A stretch of DNA of 64,000 bases from the human T2T-CHM13v2.0 reference genome, Homo sapiens: NCBI GenBank assembly GCA_009914755.4, contig CP068257.2, positions 37,728,001-37,792,000 of the forward strand. Direction: 5' to 3'. Both the position numbers and the translations under genes were made by a program. Position 1 is the stretch's first letter. Every line of letters begins with the position of its first letter. Positions 1,846 to 53,534 of the stretch are shown piece by piece. The notes under the pieces are model-generated. The model was not told the DNA's origin and did not search any database. It saw only the letters and a program-made list of their open reading frames with translations.

Positions 1846-3629
1846 CTATGATAGAATAAGAATATATTTTAAGTACATGCTTTACTCCTTATTTACATTT
1901 TGTTTTACTTTTTCCCCTTCATGTCAGACAAGTAATGTGCCCAGTGGTGCTGACTTCATAGTAAGGTTTGAGAGAGGGACATCTCACACATGAGCGTGAA
2001 ACCCCAATCTTCAAGCTTATGAAAGGATCTCATTTTGTATAGACTGTATCCATAACAGCTGTCATATTAATGTCTATCACACATCAGTTGATACACCTAT
2101 TACATGAGACAACTTAAGGTCCACCCCAGTAATCAGGAAAACAACGTATGCTAAGGAGATTTTAATAGTACTTGCATGTCAAGCCTCATTAGACATATGA
2201 CAAATCCTAAAGCCCGAGCTATATTTCACCACTGTCGCCATCATCCACTATTCCCTACAGTTCCACATGACAGGACAATGTCATGAAGTTGAATACCGGA
2301 GGAGTCTCGTCGACCGTATTCCCACCCATCCCCAAATTTGTTGTGAACTTCAACAATACTGTCCTCACAAGACCTTAACCCTCACATTAAGACCAATCAC
2401 CTGAAAAAAAGCACCATGCCGTACGGTCAGGTTGACTATCCTGCTACAGTTAATCCCTTCATATCATATAATGAGGAACTAAAAGGATCAGTTTTGAATT
2501 TATCACTTTCATTTAGGTGTTTGAAGAATCTGAAAAGCACAGGTATTAATATGACCATACTAACTTGATACATTAAGTTCAAAATTTAAGCCATGTTAAA
2601 GAAACATAAAAATACTTTTAGATACCATCCATCAATACTGAGAAGAAAGCTTAACATTTATTCCTTGTTAGTAAGTATACAGCAGCAGCTAAATTAGTTT
2701 AGCCCCCAGCGGGTGGTATAAAAGACCCATACGGATACTGACCAATTACTTGAATTAAAGGGCCATAAAGACAAGCAAGTAGAGCTCACAACTTCAATGC
2801 TAACATGGGCGGAAAAATCACTGCAGGGTGTTCTGTACTAATAGTAGGATTCCACAGACAGCATAATGACTTTTAATACTTCAACATCCTTTGAGTAACA
2901 AATGATAAATGTATTTGAGACAAAACTGCTACTACACACATTGCTATCACAAAGTTTCACAATCACTTCTGTATTTAAGAACTACTCTTTTGTAGTCTGA
3001 TTTCTAAAGATTTCTCATTAATTTCATAATCATTCCAATACAAAAAATACAAAACTGGGAAACAGTTAAAATAGAATACATAATACCTTGGACTTGAAAT
3101 AATACCACGTGTAACCATTATCAGCTGAAAAGCTAGATTAAAAAAAAATCAATCAAGTTTCCCGAAGTATAATGTTTGGACCTTCAAAATATTTAGTTCT
3201 AGGGAAAGATACAAGTCAGAAGCACACACAGTGACAAGATATGCCTTGAAAACATGTCTACTGTGTAGTATGATAATCGATACACCAAGTGCTTACGTTC
3301 TGTTTAGACTTCAAAGTCTGATCAACCATGAAGTCAAAGGTGTATTACAGAAACGAGATGTAAAAATGAACAAATCCCTTCTGCCCTTTTTCCTTTTGGG
3401 AAAACTGACCTCATAGGCTCGTTCCTCAACAAACACTGACATGAAGACTTACCTGTTGGCCTCTCAATTACATCTGATGTCCCAAACCCACTGAGAGTAA
3501 AACTTGGAACTGTTTTCATTAAAAAATTCACTTTACAGTAGATCTCAAGATGGACAAAGATAAATAAGGAAAGAAACAAGAAAAATGTAAAGAGGGAAAC
3601 AGGCAGATATTTCAGCCAATTAGTTTAAA

Positions 3630-4995: not shown

Positions 4996-5025
4996 AGCTG
5001 ACAACCGCGCCGATCTCCTCTTGGG
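4996..5025 (-). CDS. HMGN1: HMGN1 coding exon 3 (PKRRSARLSA)
   Basis: Reverse-complement CCCAAGAGGAGATCGGCGCGGTTGTCAGCT with a polypyrimidine...ccaag acceptor and gtaagtaaag donor. Confidence 0.9.
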
Positions 5026-5118
5026 CTTGGAGAAAGAAAAAGGAGAGTCAGCGAGAAGAGAAGGCAGGCCAGCGGCTCACGGGAAACCCACCACCCCCCG
5101 CAGAAGGCCCGCACTCAC

Positions 5119-5151
5119 CTCTTCCTTGGCGGCGCCTTCGGCGGAGCTGAC
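5119..5151 (-). CDS. HMGN1: HMGN1 coding exon 2 (VSSAEGAAKEE)
   Basis: Reverse-complement GTCAGCTCCGCCGAAGGCGCCGCCAAGGAAGAG with tctccgcag acceptor and gtgagtgc donor. Confidence 0.9.
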
Positions 5152-5476
5152 CTGCGGAGACGGAGACGCACGAATAGAGGCGGGCCGCAGTCCCAGGACT
5201 CGCGGGCCCGCCCGGCCCCGAGAACAATGCCCGGCCGCGTGACGTCACGGCTTCCCGCCGCCCCGTTCGAATAGCCCCCTCAGCTCCCCCGGCCGCCAAA
5301 CGTTCCAGAACGCCCGCCCCCGCGGCCGCCGAGCGCTCGCCTGCCCGCCCGCCGGTCTCCAAGCGCCTCCCGGGCCCGTCGCCACCGTGGGTGCAACGGG
5401 GCCTGGGCCTCGCGGGGCCCGGCGGGGCGCCGGCGGCGGCTCCAGGGGGCGTGTGCGGGCCGCGGCCGCCGCTCAC

Positions 5477-5491: not shown

Positions 5492-6655
<1,164 letters not shown>

Positions 6656-13064: not shown

Positions 13065-13475
<411 letters not shown>

Positions 13476-18582: not shown

Positions 18583-19701
18583 TGAGTTGGCTTCTTTCTC
18601 TGTCTGAAATGGAAATTCTAGGTGTCATATCCAGATTACAGCATCCAGACAAATAATGTCTCTTTTCTCAGAGTGTCAATCGATTGGCTTTTTTTACTGC
18701 TTAGAATGTAGTCACAGTCAGGGGGACTCGGATACCCTTTGGCCAAATCAGGCCCACCCCTGGAGTTGGGCCAGGAGTGGAGACAGTGGAAACCTGAACA
18801 AAATGAGGGCTGTGTCACAAAGGACAAGGAGAAGAGTTGATGTGGCCTGGTATTCAGCAGTATCCGCCAGGCTGTGTGGATGGGGAGCCATTTGCCCTGC
18901 CAGGGATGCAGAGAGTTTGAGAGGAAGCTGGTAGGTCTGGTGTTGATGCATTACATTTTGGGAAACATCCGGGTCCGGTAGGCAGTTGCAGCTACAGGCC
19001 TGGAGCTTAGGAGGAAGGAAATATTTGAAAGAAAAGAGATGTTCGGGCGAGAGCTGAAACCTCAGGCGTGTGGATGGGTCAAATGGGGAACATAAAATGC
19101 CTACACCTGGCAACTAGGGATGTCACCCATCGTCCTGATGAAGCAGTTTCAGTGAGTGGCAGGGCAGAAACGAAGCCAACGGAAGAGAGTGGAAGGGAAA
19201 GGAAGAAATGGGAAGAGCTCTGGATCCTACACTGCCGTGCTGGACCACACTGTTTCACAGGAAGCCCAGGGTCTGAGCTGGTTTGTCCATGTGATGAAGA
19301 CAGAAGATAAATAGGGGTAGGTGTGACCCAAGCCTGTGAGCCAAGGAGAAGGTATGAAGGGAGGTGATGGTCAGAACATGTGAATGCTCAGCGCTCATCA
19401 CTGTATTGGATATCCAGGCTGCTGCAGAAGGATGAGAAGCAAAGGATGCAAATGAGAGCAAAAACACAGGGCTTGACACAGCTTGTCTATCATCACTATG
19501 ATGGATGAGCTGGCCAGTGACACCCAAACACAATATACACATATAGCTCACCGTGCAGCATATGTTTCTAGCCTGTTTCCAAACTTTATGGATACATGAC
19601 TGTGTAATTAATTGTCATTAGATACGATGATTGGATTTCTGTTGTTACATGTATCCCTCTAACAGTCCACAGTGCTGATTGTTATTTTAAAAAGAACACA
19701 G

Positions 19702-36649: not shown

Positions 36650-36970
36650 TTTGGTACTATGAGAAGGTTTTTAATTTTAAAAAGAAGGAAAAAAAGAAAC
36701 ACGGACGTCAGAAAACTGGTTCAGTAGGGATGGGTGCTAGAAGGCTACGGAACCGCCGAAGGCCCAGGAGAAACCCGGAACGTGTTAACCGCTCCAACTG
36801 GAGCCGGACGAAAAAACGGCCCCGCCTCCCGCGAGGGCGACGCAGTTCGCAGGCGCGTCGGCGCGCCTGTTCTGGGGCGCTTGGCTTCACCGCGCAGGCG
36901 CGGTCGCCGCTGTTGTTGTGGTCCCCATGGAGCTGCCGTAGCGGACCCAGCACAGCCAGGAGCGTCCGGG
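36650..36970 (+). promoter_or_regulatory. GET1: GET1 (WRB) CpG-island promoter and 5' UTR; island about 36700-37250
   Basis: CpG-dense, TATA-less, with a GC box ccccgcctcc at about 36822-36832, lying immediately upstream of the GET1 ATG at 36971. Confidence 0.7.
36927..36941 (+). other. Minimal upstream ORF (atg gag ctg ccg tag, MELP) in the GET1 leader
   Basis: Read directly; 30 nt upstream of and out of frame with the main ATG. It is only in the 5' UTR if the TSS lies upstream of 36927. Confidence 0.5.
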
Positions 36971-37072
36971 ATGAGCTCAGCCGCGGCCGACCACTGGGCG
37001 TGGTTGCTGGTGCTCAGCTTCGTGTTTGGATGCAATGTTCTTAGGATCCTCCTCCCGTCCTTCTCATCCTTC
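36971..37072 (+). CDS. GET1: GET1 (WRB) coding exon 1 (MSSAAADHWAWLLVLSFVFGCNVLRILLPSFSSF)
   Basis: ATG in context ccgggATGa; 34 codons followed by gtaagt donor. Matches the WRB/GET1 N-terminus. Confidence 0.92.
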
Positions 37073-38255
37073 GTAAGTGGCTGCCTGGCCTCCCAAGGGC
37101 CGGTGGGGATGCCGCCCCAGTCCCCCGGCGGGTCTGGCGTAGGTACAGGGGTCTCAACTGGGCGACTGAAGGCCGTAGTAGCGTCTTGGTTGGTCCGTAA
37201 GCTTTTTTGAGATAGTTGTTAGCGTCTAAAAGGTACGACGCTTTACCCCAAAATCAGACTTTCTGGGTTCTAGGGGGTTGGGAGAAACACCGGGCAACCC
37301 TGGACTCTTCTGGCTGTGGGTGGCGGCGGCGAACCTCACACTGGGAGTTCCTAGTGCCCCGCTGTCAGCCTCGTTTCCGTTAATCCTGGTTCCTAGAGGC
37401 ATTCGAGCAGCCCTCGGCCAGGGTTTCCCAGAGGCCTGGCGGGCGAAGTCAGCTGTTCCAGGTCCCGGAGAGATGGATCCTCGCGTCCAGGAGCCCACAT
37501 TCTTGGGGTGGGTAGGGTGGGAGACAGGTGTAGAGAGAATCTCAGTACAGCGTGATGCCTTCAGTATCCAAGGGAGCAACCAGGTTGGGGAACACTCTCT
37601 TTCTGCCAGGTAGTGAGTACATTACCTCTGTCTCACGGCTGCTGGGAGAGGCGAGTATTATCATCCCACCCTCCTTTACCTCCCGGAGGAGTCTGGCTCA
37701 AGAGAATTTAGTGGTGGCACTAAGTCATCCACCTAGTGACTGGAGGTGGAGATTTGATTGCCTTTTGGAGCAGGGATAGGGATTTGGTGGCAAATTGGAC
37801 AGGGCGTGGTGGGGTGTGGCCATGGAAGGCGGGGGTACCTTGGGAACTGTCCCCGAGAATGAGCGCCCTCCGTATGCCCACAGCAGAAATGAGGAGCTGT
37901 TGGGCAAAGGCGGAGTCCTCAAAGATTGGGCGCATTCGTTTCAGCGTTGTCTTGGAAAACAGTTCTTGCTTTTCTCTCCTAAGATAAATTGGTAGTAGTG
38001 GAGGATATTTTATTCCACCAGTATTCATTGAGTGCCTGTTTTGTGCAAAACTCTATTCTTACTCTCTCAATTGTCCTACTGTCTGCATTGTCCTGAGATA
38101 TAGGGAATTCTCTTTTAACCCCTGAGTCTCCTTCAGAATCTTTCCTGATGCTATCCAGTCTTTAAGATGATGTCTCAGGCATTGCATAAAAGACTCCTGA
38201 TGAGCTGGCCCATGCTCATCTTCTTGTTTTTAATTGTAAAATACACATAATATGA

Positions 38256-38999: not shown

Positions 39000-41146
<2,147 letters not shown>

Positions 41147-41340: not shown

Positions 41341-42215
41341 TTTGTTTTTAGAGGCCGGGTCTTGCTCTGTGACTCAGGACCTGTGGCCACATCCTGTGCT
41401 GCCTCATACAACCTTATGGCCTCTCTAACCTCAACCCAGTTAGCTTTCCTAAACCCATTTCCCTATGATTGTTAACACTTGTTGTTAGCCAGGTTCAGAA
41501 GGATAACATAATTATTATCCCAGCAGAGTACACCCACCCTGTAATCGGTAAGAGAGATGTTTGGCCTGGTCACTGGGTTTGTGGTGAGAGTCTGTGAAAA
41601 GCTGTAAGGAACGCGCTGGTCTTCAGTAGGGTCAAATGCTGCTCCTTCACCATCGTCAGAGGCTACTTCATCACAGCCTCTCTGATTTGAGGATTCAAGT
41701 GGGAAAGACTCATGACAAGCAGCAGAAAGTCGAATTGGGAAAACAGTGCCCTCAGGGATGGGGCCGCGCTCAGGTACTTAGATTATAACCTCCGTTGGGA
41801 TGTTTCTGAAGCTTTCGTCTTAGCAGAAGTTAGGGAGGCAGCACCCCGATCTCAGCACTCAGTCTAGGCCGCACTGGTCCCCGCACTGGTCTCCCCCCTC
41901 CCCCCGCGTGAGGCCTTAGGAGGTCTGAAGTATCAGAAGTCCTTGGGCCAGTTAAGCCTAGCAAGGTCCTGGGAGGCGATCTCAGCTGTCCGCTGCGGTG
42001 GGGGTGGGATGCCTGGTAAGGACACCAAGTCCGTGGTGTTGGCGTGGTTGGAATTTTCCTGGGATCGCTCCCTTCTCTTCAAGCTGGTCACGGGGACGCA
42101 TGGTTGAGAGCGCCTAGTTCATTCAGTAGGTGGTCCAGGACTTTCTTCAGCTATAGAGGGGAACAAAGACGCCTTTGGTGAGCACCGGCTCTGCAGCTCT
42201 GCGGGTGCAGGGGAG

Positions 42216-42625
42216 GTGTACTGCGTAGGTGCCCCAGGACTGGCGGGGGCTGAGGGTCCATGCGAACGGCACTACTACGCAGGCGTCGCAGGACTGGCCC
42301 GGGCTCAAGGTCCGTGCAAACTGCATGCACTGCGCAGGTGCTCCAGGACTCGCGCGGGGTCAAAGTCCATGCAAGCCGCACGCACTGCACAGGTGCCCCA
42401 GGACTGGCACGGGCTCAGAGTCCACGCATACCGCACACACTGCGCAGGCGCTCCAGGACTGGCGCGGGCTCAGAGTCTATGCAAACCGCATACACTGTGC
42501 AGGCGCCCTAGGACTGGCGCTGGCTCAGGGTCCCTGCGAGCTGCACGCACTGCGCAGGCGCCCCAGAGCTGGTGTGGGCTGAGTGGCCACACGAGCCACA
42601 TGCACTGCGCAGGCGCCAGGAGGCC
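42216..42625. repeat. GC-rich minisatellite: about 7.5 tandem copies of a 55-bp unit (gcaggcgccccaggactggcgcgggctcagagtccatgcaaaccgcacacactgc), CpG-rich
   Basis: Periodicity is seen directly: gcaggYgcYccaggactggcRcgggctca units recur every about 55 bp. The spurious repeated peptide ORFs at 42216-42704 reflect it. Located in GET1 intron 1. Confidence 0.9.
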
Positions 42626-43436
42626 CTTCCTCTCAATCCGAGCTTTGCAGATGAAGGACTCTGCGTGTGTTGCCTTCTGGGCTTACGGGCCGAGTGCCCT
42701 TTGAGATTCAACTTTTTCTAAATTATCCTTCACTTTCTGCTGTAAAGAGTGGCCACCTCCTTTTTCCTCTAGGGGACTGAAGCGAGAGGAGGATATTGCA
42801 GGGTTTGCCTCTGTGGTCATCTTCTTAGAGAGCACCCCCTCCGCCCCCACACCCTTTTCCTCAGAGCCGTTGCTTAGTGAGTCCCTGCCATGGACCAGGC
42901 TTGGGAATGGTCCCCAAGTATTAGTTTAGGAGGACGACTCTCTGCTTCACAGGACCTACCCCAGAATCCTGTGACTCAGAAGCGCGCTTGTGAAGTGCGC
43001 ATGTGCGGGCAGGGCCTCCAGTGGGGCTCTCGTGGGGGCAGCAGCCAAGGACTGGGGCTGGTGGCCTGGAGAGCTGCCCGCTTCTCCGCCCTTGCCGGTA
43101 GGGTTCCTGGCCGAGAGTGGCATCTGGGGCTGTTCAGGGTCTGGAGCTTCCTGAGTTGGAAGACCCTGTCCTCTGTGTTCAGGGACTCAGGGTGACCTGA
43201 GTTGGTGGTTCCTGGGTTTGCCTGCTCTACTGCTGGCAGGGACTAGCACGGGGTGTGCACGTTGTCATGCCATCAATTAATTCAGAGATTCACTTTTGTT
43301 CTAAAAATTAATATTTGCATTATTACATTTAGATTCATATTAAATCTTACACTGCATGATTCTAGAACATTTTAACACTTATACGTGGGTCTTGGATTAA
43401 CATTGATACATATTTGCAAATTTATACTTTAAAACT

Positions 43437-43735: not shown

Positions 43736-44675
43736 CTCAGACAGTTTTTATTGTGCTTATACATGTAATAGATGTAATTATTTTTTCAAGCACCAGTTGT
43801 TTTTGTTAACCTTACAAAGCTGCCTTCAGTTTTCCTGAAGTTCACCCTTCTGCCTTCACTCACCTCCCATTCCTGAGTTGTTTTGTGTATTCCCTATAAT
43901 GCTAAATAATGTCTTGGAATCTCTTTTTCTTTTTAAAATATGGTTTTAAAAGTCAGATTTATTGAAGTGTAATTTGTATAAGGCGAAATTATCAAAAAGT
44001 CCTTAGCAGTGTCTGTAGATTTTCCTTGCTTTTGAAAGATAATTTTGTGATTCATCTAAGAGAATTTGGCCCATTCCTATTTCCTTCTCCAGAGTGGATC
44101 AGGCTGGAGTATAGCTCCTTCGGTTATAGTGCTGGGTAGTGGCCAGGGCAGAGGCACCACAAAGAGAGCTGGATTTGAACCCCCTACTCCCTGCGCAAAG
44201 GCTGCCAGAAGCTGCGCTGCAGTGAACACGCTGCGCATGAGCCCCTAGACCCCTCCACCCCCCCTACTCCCCACACTCCCCCCCCCCACTTTTGCCTCAT
44301 CACGCAGGCGCTGGTAGGCGGCATCACTGGGCGGGTCAGAAACCACGCGCATGCGCAGACACCCTCAGGCGACTGGCGGGTCGCGGCTTCCAAGCTCTAA
44401 ATGGAGAGTTGTCCCTACTGTGCGGCAGGCGGAGGAGACCTGTAAGCTGGAAGGGGGAGGGGGGGGGATCTGATTTATTGTGTGCCAGGCACACTTTAGA
44501 TACACTATAACATTTCGTCTTTATTAATCTATTTTTAAAATTTCGAAACAAACACAAATGTGCAGAAAAGTTATATACAGTCAATACCGATAACTGATTT
44601 TGTTTCCTGAACCATTTGGAAGTTGTCAACCCAAACCCCCTCATTCCGAGATACTTTGGTATTCAAAAGAATCTT

Positions 44676-44909
44676 GGGGGCCGGGCACAGTGGCTCACGC
44701 CTTTAATCCCAGCACTTTGGGAGGCCGAGGCTGGCGGATCGCTTGAGCTCAGGAGTTCACTGGCAACATAGTGAAACCGTGTGTCTACTAAAACTAAAAA
44801 AAAATTAGTCGAGTGTGGTGGTGCAGGCCTGTAGTCCCAGATGCTCAGGAGGCTCAGGTGGGAGTATCGCTTGAGCCCAGGAAGTCGAGGTTGCAGTGAG
44901 CCGAGATCT
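44676..44909 (+). mobile_element. Alu SINE, 3'-truncated
   Basis: ggccgggcacagtggctcacgcctttaatcccagc...gcagtgagccgagatc with no tail. Confidence 0.85.
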
Positions 44910-45639
44910 AATGCAGGCGTCAAGTACGTTACCACGATCTGATCCTCAGACCCCATGCAGGTTCCCCACGTTTCGCAGTAATGTCCTTAACAGGGAAAGG
45001 ACCCAGTTCGGAATCATGCATTGCATTTCCCGGCCTCTAGCCTCCTGTCTGGAGGAGTTTCCCAGTCTTCCCTTGACTTTCATGGCTGTCATTTGTGGGT
45101 GTCAGAGGCCAGTGATTTCGCAGAAGGGACGCCTACTGGCATGTCTGATACTTGGTAGGGATTTCTGAGAGGCAGTGCTGTGTTCTCATTGTGTCTCATC
45201 CGCTGGTGTGGGACTGGGATTTGGGGATGTTCGCTGATCCCTTGGGGTAGGTGCCAGAGGCGCCACTGAGGGATCTGGTCTTGGGGCGCCCGCGCAGTCC
45301 TTGGACTAGGCCTTCCCGGCAGATCTGCGGGCGCCACCTGGCGGTCACTGCCGACTCCTCCGTTGCGCTCCAGTCACCTCTCCCATCCCGGTGCCGTGGC
45401 CGGGCGGTTCCCTGGAGAGTGGACGGCTGGGGCTGGTGCAGGGAACAGGGGCCTGCGGGGGCTGCGCAGGCGGGCCTCCAGGTCATGCGGGGCCCCTCTG
45501 CTCACAGGGACCAGCCAGGCCAGCCTGGGGAGCGTGCTTCTTTGTTTATGTCTGTATTTCTCTGCCTATCTGTGGAAACCACAGATCTCCAATTGAAGCC
45601 AACACCACAAGATTCATTCTGCTTCTCTCCGAGACGCCT

Positions 45640-47282: not shown

Positions 47283-47448
47283 ATGTCCAGGGTGCTGCAG
47301 AAGGACGCGGAGCAGGAGTCACAGATGAGAGCGGAGATCCAGGACATGAAGCAGGAGCTCTCCACAGTCAACATGATGGACGAGTTTGCCAGATATGCCA
47401 GGCTGGAAAGAAAGATCAACAAGATGACGGATAAGCTCAAAACCCATG
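47283..47448 (+). CDS. GET1: GET1 coding exon 2 (MSRVLQKDAEQESQMRAEIQDMKQELSTVNMMDEFARYARLERKINKMTDKLKTH + 1 nt)
   Basis: ccgccctgccag acceptor, donor G|gtactg. Frame is continuous with exon 1; encodes the coiled-coil region of WRB. Confidence 0.92.
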
Positions 47449-53460: not shown

Positions 53461-53534
53461 AATTACCTGTTGGATTTTAGTCTGTAACAAAGTTGTCGCT
53501 ATTGTGCTTCATCCGTTCAGCTGAACAGGAGGAT
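53461..53534 (+). CDS. GET1: GET1 coding exon 5 (GVGITCWILVCNKVVAIVLHPFS, stop TGA at 53532-53534)
   Basis: ttgttttcag acceptor. The five exons total 525 nt, giving 174 aa plus stop, identical to the WRB/GET1 protein as I recall it. Confidence 0.92.

What the first reader, a model, noticed from the sequence alone, without database searches (positions are those of the whole stretch)
41750..43200. CpG-rich 55-bp tandem-repeat island in GET1 intron 1: candidate imprinted DMR / alternative promoter
About 5.3 kb downstream of the GET1 start there is a discrete GC/CpG-rich block that is not a transposable element. Its core at 42216-42625 is about 7.5 tandem copies of a 55-bp unit carrying 3-4 CpGs each, flanked by further CpG-rich unique sequence (cagaagcgcgcttgtgaagtgcgcatgtgcggg). 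Tandem repeats inside intragenic CpG islands are a recurring feature of germline imprinted DMRs. From memory, a maternally methylated DMR overlapping an alternative WRB promoter has been reported in WRB intron 1 at about this offset from the main TSS. The match between that position and this repeat is my inference, not something I can read from the sequence.
Basis: partly seen in the sequence, partly recalled or inferred. Interest (0 to 1): 0.6.

Follow-up and report, generated by a model that had tools for sequence, protein, structure and literature searches.

The report
Known imprinted WRB/GET1 intron-1 methylation mark

Summary
A 55-bp unit is repeated 7.3 times at 42220-42617, inside a modest CpG island at 42101-42600, 5.25 kb downstream of the GET1 start codon.

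Published PCR primers place the window at hg19 chr21 = window + 40,715,340. The published maternally methylated WRB DMR then falls on 42170-42936, and the nanopore-defined DMR on 42066-43384. My CpG counts in these intervals (43 and 59) equal the published counts. The motif array described in 2016 (seven AGGYGBYSYAGGACT motifs spanning 388 bp) is found exactly, at 42128-42515.

So this is the known WRB:alt-TSS-DMR, and its repeat has already been described.

Corrections to the finding:
- The 3' flank is not CpG-rich (o/e 0.36).
- Units carry 3-6 CpGs.
- The RefSeq short-isoform first exon lies about 1.7 kb further downstream, near 44.4 kb. A different isoform (ENST00000380713) is the one reported to have its promoter on the DMR.

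Small additions:
- The DMR has no ZFP57 hexamer.
- Three units carry the NRF1 consensus GCGCNTGCGC.
- Tandem arrays of 4.3-8.3 copies are present in all six anthropoids examined. Bear has non-periodic copies of the core and tree shrew one decayed copy.

Still open in the literature: germline versus secondary origin, and any effect on expression.

The parts
42066..43384 (.). Extent of parent-of-origin differential methylation seen with phased nanopore reads (hg38 chr21:39,385,480-39,386,798): maternal 0.93, paternal 0.42.
   Evidence: Akbari 2022 supplement. Mapped with the offset hg38 = window + 39,343,414. My CpG count is 59, as published.
42170..42936 (.). WRB:alt-TSS-DMR as catalogued (hg19 chr21:40,757,510-40,758,276; hg38 39,385,584-39,386,350).
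   Evidence: Coordinates. Offset from primer mapping. 43 CpGs counted, the same as the published 43.
42221..42617 (+). Tandem array of a 55-bp unit (7 full units plus a 13-nt start of an eighth). Consensus: CTGCGCAGGCGCCCCAGGACTGGCGCGGGCTCAGGGTCCATGCAAACCGCACGCA.
   Evidence: TRF, unit alignment, self-BLAST. The published motif AGGYGBYSYAGGACT hits 7 times over exactly 388 bp (42128-42515), against 0 expected.
42128..42142 (+). Solitary upstream copy of the 15-nt motif. It is the first of the seven published motif positions and lies 99 bp before the regular array.
   Evidence: The surrounding sequence is only 48% like the unit consensus.
42263..42381 (.). Core reported as 70% methylated in one oocyte pool (hg19 40757603-40757721). 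It has 12 CpGs and o/e 0.94.
   Evidence: PMC4839675 discussion. CpG count.
42442..42451 (-). NRF1 consensus GCGCNTGCGC (read as GCGCCTGCGC on the minus strand) in unit 5.
   Evidence: Consensus taken from PMC10810270.
42552..42561 (-). NRF1 consensus in unit 7.
42607..42616 (-). NRF1 consensus in the partial eighth unit.
42426..42686 (.). Published HhaI/BstUI methylation-assay amplicon (CGI-2). It contains the informative SNPs rs2299739 (42547, a CpG-creating G/A) and rs2244352 (42633).
   Evidence: S1 Table of PMC4839675. Exact primer matches. Bases read.
42700..42815 (.). CpG-poor stretch between the array and the candidate exon. It is conserved in tree shrew (about 76%) and partly in bear. 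It may be core regulatory sequence older than the array.
   Evidence: BLAST to L007 and L008. The sequence is visible.
42907..43097 (+). Candidate alternative exon, followed by a GT at 43098-43099. It is the ortholog of the first coding exon of a Colobus angolensis GET1 isoform. It is non-coding in human, with in-frame stops including TGA at 42972-42974.
   Evidence: tblastn of the P0049 N-terminus gives 81% identity and E = 2e-25. Exon limits in Colobus L001 are 13245-13424. Alignment. The human exon limits themselves are inferred.
44347..44441 (+). First exon region of the RefSeq short isoform (NM_001146218 / ENST00000380708). The published exon-1 tag lies at 44375-44407, a perfect GCGCATGCGC site lies at 44347-44356, and a likely GTAAG donor starts at 44442. 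This is about 1.7 kb downstream of the array.
   Evidence: Tag from S1 and S8 Tables, mapped. Sequence. NRF1 site. The exon start and the donor are inferred.
36971..37072 (+). GET1 exon 1 coding part (residues 1-34), inside the canonical unmethylated promoter island (36701-37500, o/e 0.85).
   Evidence: The CGI-1 primers map to 36779-37038.
47283..47447 (+). GET1 exon 2 (residues 35-89). It marks the 3' end of intron 1, which holds the DMR.

Best explanation
The block is the human WRB:alt-TSS-DMR, a small intragenic CpG island in intron 1 of GET1/WRB. Its core is a tandem array of a 55-bp unit seen in all six anthropoid primates examined.

**Shown in the literature.**
- In somatic tissues the maternal copy is methylated and the paternal copy is largely unmethylated.
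- The mark is absent from sperm and from androgenetic moles.
- It is lost in multi-locus imprinting disturbance.
- Both alleles become methylated in pluripotent stem cells.

**Most likely mechanism (inferred).**
1. The island lies 5.3 kb inside the transcription unit of a housekeeping promoter. In growing oocytes it is therefore transcribed through and methylated de novo, as at other maternal DMRs. In sperm it stays unmethylated, like other CpG islands.
2. After fertilisation the difference is kept.
3. On the paternal allele the unmethylated island is open chromatin and serves as a weak alternative promoter for minor GET1 isoforms. It may be bound by the methylation-sensitive factor NRF1, whose consensus sits in several repeat units.
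4. On the maternal allele, methylation shuts this promoter.
5. The main GET1 promoter is unaffected, so total GET1 output looks biallelic.
For: **Identity.**
- The primer-derived offset is consistent at 13 mapped sequences.
- All published intervals overlap the array.
- CpG counts equal the published counts: 43 and 59.
- The published 7-motif, 388-bp array is reproduced exactly.

**Parent-of-origin methylation (literature).**

**Hypermethylation in hESC/iPSC.**

**Intragenic position downstream of an unmethylated CpG-island promoter.**

**CpG decay.**
- CpG o/e is 0.70 in the array, against 0.85 at the main promoter and 0.22-0.31 in the surrounding intron.
- Consensus-CpG positions diverge 2.2 times faster than other positions, mostly to TpG/CpA (Fisher p = 0.003).
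- Both fit methylation in one germline only.

**Alternative promoter.**
- Allelically imbalanced ATAC peak in neurons at window 42237-43126, assigned to ENST00000380713.
- Colobus exon orthologous to 42907-43097.
- GET1 is listed as paternally expressed by Zink, as compiled.

**NRF1.**
- Three exact GCGCNTGCGC sites in the array, and one at each other promoter-like island in the window.
- NRF1 binding is blocked by CpG methylation.

**Biallelic total expression.**
Against: - Oocyte methylation is low or variable in the published data: 17.5% on average, and 11.5% against 49.9% in two pools. Two studies therefore class the DMR as secondary or somatic.
- The paternal allele is not clean (0.42 methylated in nanopore data).
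- There is no ZFP57 hexamer (TGCCGC) in the DMR of human or of any primate examined. ZFP57-mutation patients keep the mark. So the usual maintenance route is not evident.
- Imprinted expression has not been demonstrated for any specific isoform. Docherty saw mostly biallelic and sporadically opposite monoallelic expression, and Alves da Silva saw biallelic expression.
- I could not verify the TSS of ENST00000380713.
- No NRF1 binding data were available. NRF1 motifs are common in CpG-island promoters, so their presence is weak evidence.
Confidence: 0.9

Rival explanations
1. Secondary (somatic) DMR. The array is not reliably methylated in oocytes. The maternal allele acquires methylation after fertilisation, directed by some other maternal mark, so the array is not a primary germline imprint.
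For: Okae 2014 classed it as secondary, with 17.5% mean oocyte methylation (reported). Akbari 2022 labels it 'Somatic' with no ZFP57/ZNF445 binding. There is no TGCCGC hexamer.
Against: A 119-bp core is 70% methylated in one oocyte pool, and blastocysts show 38%. [quoted passage not shown] The 2024 consensus statement lists it as 'Oocyte_gDMR'.
Confidence: 0.3
2. Functionally inert imprint. The parent-of-origin methylation is a by-product of transcription through an intragenic CpG-rich repeat, and it controls no transcript.
For: WRB and ten neighbouring genes are biallelic in many tissues. The RefSeq short-isoform exon-1 tag, which lies at about 44.4 kb rather than on the DMR, has 16 reads or fewer per RNA-seq run. 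Docherty saw mostly biallelic expression. The 2024 statement marks the locus as not clinically associated.
Against: Allelic chromatin accessibility at this element in neurons. GET1 is listed as paternally biased by Zink. Active and repressive histone marks coincide here as at MEST. Array, NRF1 sites and CpG richness are kept in six anthropoid genomes representing roughly 40 million years of divergence (my estimate of the age).
Confidence: 0.3
3. Genotype-driven allele-specific methylation. The methylated allele is determined by a cis variant (a SNP or the repeat copy number), not by the parent of origin.
For: A tandem repeat with CpG-SNPs (rs2299739 is a CpG-creating variant inside unit 6) could in principle produce sequence-dependent methylation. 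The paternal allele is partly methylated (0.42).
Against: Reciprocal uniparental disomy, an androgenetic mole, trios, and trisomy 21 of known parental origin all show that the methylated allele is the maternal one. Four independent genome-wide studies and phased nanopore data agree.
Confidence: 0.02
4. The block is a transposable-element or satellite remnant, and its CpG richness and repeats are only relics of that element.
For: I could not run a repeat-library search. Alus flank the block (about 40.1-40.5 kb and from about 43.44 kb).
Against: There is no second copy of any part of 41600-43400 in the 64-kb window. A published whole-genome scan found the array nowhere else. The flanks are orthologous in tree shrew and bear, and the core motif is present in bear at the same position. 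This indicates old unique sequence amplified locally.
Confidence: 0.03

Closest known systems
WRB:alt-TSS-DMR (Court 2014; Docherty 2014; Alves da Silva 2016; 2024 MLID consensus list)
   Same: It is the same locus. Coordinates, CpG counts, assay primers, SNPs and the 7-motif, 388-bp array all coincide.
   Different: Nothing differs in substance. I describe the array as a 55-bp unit with six ancestral CpGs and an NRF1 consensus. The 2016 paper described a 15-nt motif at regular spacing and proposed SPDEF.
SNU13 (NHP2L1):alt-TSS-DMR and L3MBTL1:alt-TSS-DMR, small maternally methylated DMRs at alternative promoters of housekeeping genes
   Same: They were discovered in the same screens. Each is an intragenic island downstream of a biallelic main promoter, and each is hypomethylated in multi-locus imprinting disturbance.
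   Different: For NHP2L1, isoform-specific monoallelic expression was shown directly (exons 2-4 monoallelic, exons 1-4 biallelic). For WRB it was not.
Classical maternal germline DMRs with tandem repeats (for example KvDMR1, IGF2R:Int2-DMR, PEG3 and SNRPN regions)
   Same: All are intragenic CpG islands. All contain a tandem direct repeat, are maternally methylated, and sit at the promoter of a paternally active transcript. This comparison rests on established knowledge, not on tests made here.
   Different: The classical DMRs carry several ZFP57 TGCCGC sites, control gene clusters and cause disease when lost. This one has no TGCCGC, is unaffected in ZFP57 patients, has no cluster effect, and has the 55-bp array only in anthropoid primates among the genomes examined. 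Published cross-species methylation conservation is listed for monkey and chimp only.
Clusters of methylation-sensitive NRF1 sites in repeats (subtelomeric TERRA promoters, young retrotransposon promoters)
   Same: These are repeated CpG-rich units that each carry GCGCNTGCGC. Their activity is blocked by CpG methylation (titles and abstracts).
   Different: NRF1 binding at the WRB array is untested. Only 3 of about 8 units keep an intact site in human.

Membership tests
WRB:alt-TSS-DMR (specific published locus) | Lies at hg19 chr21:40,757,510-40,758,276 (hg38 39,385,584-39,386,350). | tested here: met
   Thirteen published primers or tags map uniquely with one offset. The interval is window 42170-42936, and the array at 42221-42617 lies inside it.
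WRB:alt-TSS-DMR (specific published locus) | Contains 43 CpGs (59 in the nanopore-defined interval). | tested here: met
   Counts of 43 and 59 equal the published values.
WRB:alt-TSS-DMR (specific published locus) | Contains seven AGGYGBYSYAGGACT motifs spanning 388 bp. | tested here: met
   Seven exact hits at 42128-42515, which is 388 bp, against 0 expected by chance.
Imprinted maternally methylated DMR | About 50% methylation in somatic tissue, with the methylated allele always maternal. | not testable with these tools
   Literature only: UPD, mole, trio, trisomy-21 and phased nanopore data.
Imprinted maternally methylated DMR (germline class) | Methylated in oocytes, unmethylated in sperm, and maintained through preimplantation. 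| not testable with these tools
   The literature conflicts. Sperm methylation is 0.45%, oocytes range from 11.5% to 49.9% (70% in the core), and blastocysts show 38%. It is classed 'Somatic' and 'Oocyte_gDMR'.
Imprinted maternally methylated DMR (germline class) | A CpG island inside an oocyte-transcribed unit, downstream of an active promoter. | tested here: met
   The position in intron 1, 5.25 kb downstream of the GET1 ATG and its promoter island, is shown. Transcription in oocytes is assumed.
Imprinted maternally methylated DMR (germline class) | ZFP57 recognition hexamers (TGCCGC), which are typical but not obligatory. | tested here: not met
   There are 0 hexamers in 42066-43384 and 0 in the orthologous regions of five primates. 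This fits retention of the mark in ZFP57 patients and 'None' for ZFP57/ZNF445.
Imprinted maternally methylated DMR | An associated transcript expressed from the unmethylated (paternal) allele only. | not testable with these tools
   The evidence is equivocal. Total WRB is biallelic, Zink lists it as paternal, and accessibility is allelic in neurons.
CpG island (Gardiner-Garden and Frommer criteria) | At least 200 bp, GC at least 0.5, CpG o/e at least 0.6. | tested here: met
   Region 42101-42600 has GC 0.65 and o/e 0.65. The full 41750-43200 block fails (o/e 0.53), and the 3' flank has o/e 0.36.
Alternative promoter / TSS | A transcript 5' end inside or next to the block. | tested here: inconclusive
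   A preprint assigns the ATAC peak at window 42237-43126 to the promoter of ENST00000380713. A Colobus gene model has its first coding exon orthologous to 42907-43097. No human transcript or CAGE data were available here. The RefSeq short-isoform exon 1 is at about 44.4 kb.
NRF1 binding-site cluster | Matches to GCGCNTGCGC. | tested here: met
   Three exact matches in the array, against 0 expected in window shuffles. Actual binding was not testable.
Transposable element / satellite | Similarity to a dispersed repeat family. | tested here: inconclusive
   There is no other copy in the window. Rfam finds nothing in the block. No repeat library was available. A published genome scan found no other locus.

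The most novel reading that the evidence does not exclude
The 55-bp array is a local amplification, seen in anthropoid primates, of an older NRF1-site-bearing promoter element. Bear has the core motif at the same spot without periodicity, and tree shrew has one CpG-decayed copy. Multimerised, methylation-sensitive NRF1 sites would then do two things on the paternal allele: hold it open as a weak alternative GET1 promoter, and protect it from de novo methylation. That would give a ZFP57-independent way of keeping a parent-of-origin difference, and it would tie the origin of this primate imprint to the repeat expansion. The one paper that analysed the array proposed SPDEF and did not mention NRF1.
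Probability: 0.25. Interest if true: 0.4.

Novelty: already known. Interest (0 to 1): 0.12.

Why it matters
The locus is the only catalogued imprinted DMR on chromosome 21. [quoted passage not shown] It adds nothing new about the locus itself.

Three questions remain open and are modest in scope:
- Is the mark laid down in oocytes or later?
- How is it kept without ZFP57 sites?
- Does it control a minor GET1 isoform?

The repeat's NRF1 consensus sites and its lineage-specific amplification give a concrete, testable handle on the last two.

Tried and rejected
- **Unit register.** My first unit register was off by one base, because unit 1 is 54 bp, and it gave misleading identities. I corrected it with MAFFT.
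- **hg38 offset.** My first hg38 offset was off by one. I corrected it using rs2299739 and the CpG counts.
- **ZFP57.** A search for TGCCGC found none in the DMR.
- **Rfam.** A whole-window scan found nothing in the block, only Alu-derived SRP hits and a snoU13 copy elsewhere.
- **Orthologous loci.**
  - I went through a homologue search instead.
  - Marmoset and capuchin products were not on record.
  - The tamarin hit was an intronless retrocopy and was discarded.
- **Paper searches.**
  - The DMR's formal name failed on syntax or returned nothing.
  - 'ENST00000380713' returned only the one preprint.
  - No paper on copy-number variation of the repeat was found.
  - The 2026 nanopore ageing paper mentions neither WRB nor GET1.
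  - No paper linking NRF1 to this DMR was found.
- **Rejected explanations.** Genotype-driven allele-specific methylation and a transposable-element origin (see rivals).
Full report
**1. What is in the sequence**

Tandem Repeats Finder reports one strong array in 40-45 kb: period 55, 7.3 copies, 78% matches, score 411, at 42220-42617. Self-BLAST of 41600-43400 against the whole window gives only the phase-shifted self-matches of this array (down to E = 6e-61) and nothing elsewhere.

After correcting the register (unit 1 is 54 bp), there are seven full units at 42221-42604, each 76-91% identical to their consensus. A 13-nt start of an eighth unit follows at 42605-42617. The consensus unit is CTGCGCAGGCGCCCCAGGACTGGCGCGGGCTCAGGGTCCATGCAAACCGCACGCA and has six CpGs. 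Real units keep 3-6 of them.

CpG statistics:

| Region | GC | CpG o/e |
|---|---|---|
| Array 42220-42617 | 0.68 | 0.70 (32 CpGs) |
| 42101-42600 (passes island criteria) | 0.65 | 0.65 |
| 3' flank 42626-43200 | 0.57 | 0.36 |
| Whole window | 0.45 | 0.39 |
| Canonical promoter island 36701-37500 | 0.62 | 0.85 |
| Surrounding intron | 0.46-0.51 | 0.22-0.31 |

**2. Where the window comes from**

A tblastn search with the recalled WRB and HMGN1 proteins finds:
- the five GET1 coding exons on the plus strand (ATG at 36971, exon 2 at 47283-47447, last coding exon ending near 53521);
- HMGN1 on the minus strand at 1.7-5.5 kb.

The exon 2 translation matches PDB chains named 'Tail-anchored protein insertion receptor WRB' and 'GET1' at E = 3e-29. 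The array starts 5,250 bp downstream of the GET1 ATG, inside intron 1.

**3. Mapping to the published DMR**

The literature search found 14 papers on a maternally methylated WRB DMR. The S1 Table of Alves da Silva et al. 2016 (PMC4839675) lists primers with hg19 coordinates. Thirteen of these sequences match the window exactly and uniquely. All of them up to 45.3 kb give the same offset, hg19 = window + 40,715,340. Using rs2299739 and the interval lists in Akbari et al. 2022, hg38 = window + 39,343,414.

| Published interval | Window coordinates |
|---|---|
| Court/Okae DMR, hg19 40757510-40758276 | 42170-42936 |
| Docherty DMR, hg19 40757691-40758208 | 42351-42868 |
| Oocyte-methylated core, hg19 40757603-40757721 | 42263-42381 |
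| Methylation-sensitive PCR amplicon | 42426-42686 |
| Nanopore DMR, hg38 39385480-39386798 | 42066-43384 |
| ATAC 'imprinted regulatory element' in neurons, hg38 39,385,651-39,386,540 | 42237-43126 |

Three independent checks agree:
- The 2024 MLID consensus statement lists WRB:alt-TSS-DMR with 43 CpGs. I count 43 in 42170-42936.
- Akbari lists 59 CpGs. I count 59 in 42066-43384.
- The 2016 paper describes 'seven tandem units' of AGGYGBYSYAGGACT 'encompassing 388 bp'. The pattern hits exactly seven times, from 42128 to 42515, which is 388 bp, with none expected by chance.

**4. What is known about it (literature, not tested here)**

- *Methylation by parent.* The maternal allele is methylated and the paternal allele is unmethylated in blood. 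An androgenetic mole is unmethylated, and hESC are hypermethylated.
- *Trisomy 21.* The ratio of resistant sites separates maternal from paternal trisomy 21 (68% against 34%).
- *Imprinting disorders.* The mark is hypomethylated in patients with multi-locus imprinting disturbance, but not in ZFP57-mutation patients.
- *Phased nanopore data.* Methylation is 0.93 on the maternal allele and 0.42 on the paternal allele. The table labels the DMR 'Somatic', gives 'None' for ZFP57/ZNF445, and lists conservation in monkey and chimp.
- *Pluripotent cells.* iPSC reprogramming methylates both alleles even when DNMT3B is defective.
- *Expression is unresolved.* Docherty saw mostly biallelic WRB with sporadic, opposing monoallelic cases. 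Alves da Silva found biallelic expression at 3'UTR SNPs and called the imprint 'uncoupled'. Zink is cited as listing GET1 as paternally expressed. A preprint found allelic chromatin accessibility at this element in neurons and assigned it to the promoter of ENST00000380713.
- *Germline status is also disputed.* Okae classed it as secondary, Alves da Silva argued for a germline DMR, and the 2024 statement lists 'Oocyte_gDMR'.

**5. The alternative promoter**

The exon-1 tag of the RefSeq short isoform (NM_001146218 / ENST00000380708) maps to 44375-44407, about 1.75 kb beyond the array. It sits in a separate small GC-rich block. A perfect GCGCATGCGC lies at 44347, and a GTAAG donor starts at 44442. 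That isoform therefore does not start in the DMR.

A different transcript probably does start there. Besides the preprint's statement, a predicted Colobus angolensis GET1 isoform (P0049) has a 60-residue N-terminus. Residues 6-58 align to window 42933-43091 at 81% identity and E = 2e-25. In the Colobus locus this exon is L001:13245-13424 and is followed directly by exon 2 in the protein.

In human the orthologous stretch (about 42907-43097) has in-frame stops, so it would be 5'UTR. It is followed by GT at 43098-43099. Gorilla, orangutan, siamang, Colobus and titi all have GC at that position.

I could not check human transcript annotation or CAGE, so the human exon limits are inferred.

**6. 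Sequence features bearing on mechanism**

- *No ZFP57 site.* There is no ZFP57 hexamer in the DMR or in any primate orthologue. This fits the ZFP57-independence seen in patients.
- *CpG decay.* Within the array, consensus-CpG positions differ from the consensus 2.2 times more often than other positions (0.25 against 0.11, Fisher p = 0.003). Of the 20 lost CpGs, 14 are now TpG or CpA. rs2299739 is itself a CpG/CpA polymorphism in unit 6. Together with the intermediate o/e, this is what methylation in one germline would produce. This is an inference.
- *NRF1 consensus.* The first 13 nt of the unit contain TGCGCAGGCGC, the reverse complement of the NRF1 consensus GCGCNTGCGC (PMC10810270). Exact matches remain at 42442, 42552 and 42607. 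The only other matches in the 64-kb window are in the HMGN1 island, the GET1 main promoter and just upstream of the 44.4-kb alternative exon. NRF1 binding is blocked by CpG methylation (PMC9729108). The 2016 paper proposed SPDEF and did not mention NRF1. NRF1 occupancy here is a hypothesis only.

**7. Comparative data**

I fetched orthologous loci through a homologue search and contig look-ups.

| Species | 55-bp copies (TRF) | Array CpG o/e |
|---|---|---|
| Human | 7.3 | 0.70 |
| Gorilla | 7.3 | 0.74 |
| Bornean orangutan | 4.9, plus degenerate units | 0.76 |
| Siamang | 6.6 | 0.73 |
| Colobus | 4.3 | 0.60 |
| Titi monkey | 8.3 | 0.70 |

Each of these six arrays keeps 1-3 NRF1 consensus sites and has no ZFP57 hexamer.

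In tree shrew and black bear the flanks are orthologous, but there is no 55-bp periodicity:
- Bear has three irregularly spaced copies of GCACTGCGCAGGCGCCCC, one of them as GCGCATGCGC. They lie in a CpG-rich stretch of 461 bp with 24 CpGs.
- Tree shrew has one decayed copy, with 1 CpG in 170 bp.

So the core motif predates primates. It was amplified into a regular array before the catarrhine-platyrrhine split. This is consistent with the published statement of 2-8 units since marmoset, and slightly extends it.

**8. Verdict**

Both the observation and the interpretation stand. The feature is the already known WRB:alt-TSS-DMR, including its repeat, so novelty is nil and interest is low.

The most likely mechanism is this:
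- Oocyte-specific methylation of an intragenic island, driven by transcription through it.
- A paternal allele that stays open as a weak, possibly NRF1-dependent, alternative promoter.
- An unaffected main promoter, which explains biallelic total expression.

This mechanism is largely inferred from the general model of maternal DMRs. It competes with two rivals in the literature: a secondary-DMR origin and a functionally inert imprint.

Noticed in passing
window 6224, 36892, 42442, 42552, 42607, 44347: The NRF1 consensus GCGCNTGCGC occurs six times in the 64-kb window, against 0 expected. One site lies in each promoter-like CpG block (HMGN1 island, GET1 main promoter, upstream of the 44.4-kb alternative exon) and three lie in the tandem array.
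   Followed up: partly
window 43098-43099; L002, L003, L004, L001, L005 orthologous positions: Human has GT directly after the candidate alternative exon. Gorilla, orangutan, siamang, Colobus and titi all have GC, and the Colobus gene model uses that GC as its donor. This may be a human-lineage change that strengthens the splice donor. It rests on single genomes only, and I did not check whether it is polymorphic.
   Followed up: partly
L008 (Ursus americanus) 5001-5153; L007 (Tupaia) 5714-5883: Bear carries three non-periodic copies of the repeat's core motif (GCACTGCGCAGGCGCCCC, one of them as GCGCATGCGC) at the orthologous position, in a CpG-rich stretch. Tree shrew has a single CpG-depleted copy. 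The element therefore predates the primate tandem expansion.
   Followed up: partly
window 42700-42815: A CpG-poor, AT-richer stretch between the array and the candidate exon is conserved in tree shrew (about 76%) and partly in bear. It may be an old regulatory core.
   Followed up: no
window 44423-45287: A second maternal DMR reported only by Zink (hg38 39387837-39388701) maps here. It covers the end of the 44.4-kb alternative exon and 'CGI-3'. It was not confirmed in the nanopore study (0 of 83 samples). The 2016 paper describes CGI-3 as differentially methylated between gametes but unmethylated in adult tissue.
   Followed up: partly
window 19409-19517: This stretch has 68% nucleotide identity (E = 9e-6) and 52% protein identity to GET1 exon 2, about 17.5 kb upstream of the gene. 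It looks like an old exon-2-like fragment or pseudogene remnant.
   Followed up: partly
window 1922-2028 (-): Rfam snoU13 match (70.9 bits against a gathering score of 46) next to an HMGN1 exon. It is presumably one of the many U13-like copies in the human genome.
   Followed up: no
window 40133-40472: A 162-bp unit is duplicated 2.1 times at 98% identity within Alu-derived sequence, about 1.7 kb upstream of the DMR block.
   Followed up: no
L006 (Saguinus oedipus): The tamarin 'GET complex subunit get1, partial' entry is an intronless 562-bp gene, that is, a processed GET1 retrocopy and not the orthologous locus.
   Followed up: no
window 45028-45046: The published CGI-3 forward primer (attcccggcctctagcc) does not match the window exactly. 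The window reads atttcccggcctctagcc, with one extra T. This is probably a typing slip in the table or a single-base indel. There is also a 1-bp shift in the hg19 offset between 45.3 and 53.6 kb.
   Followed up: no
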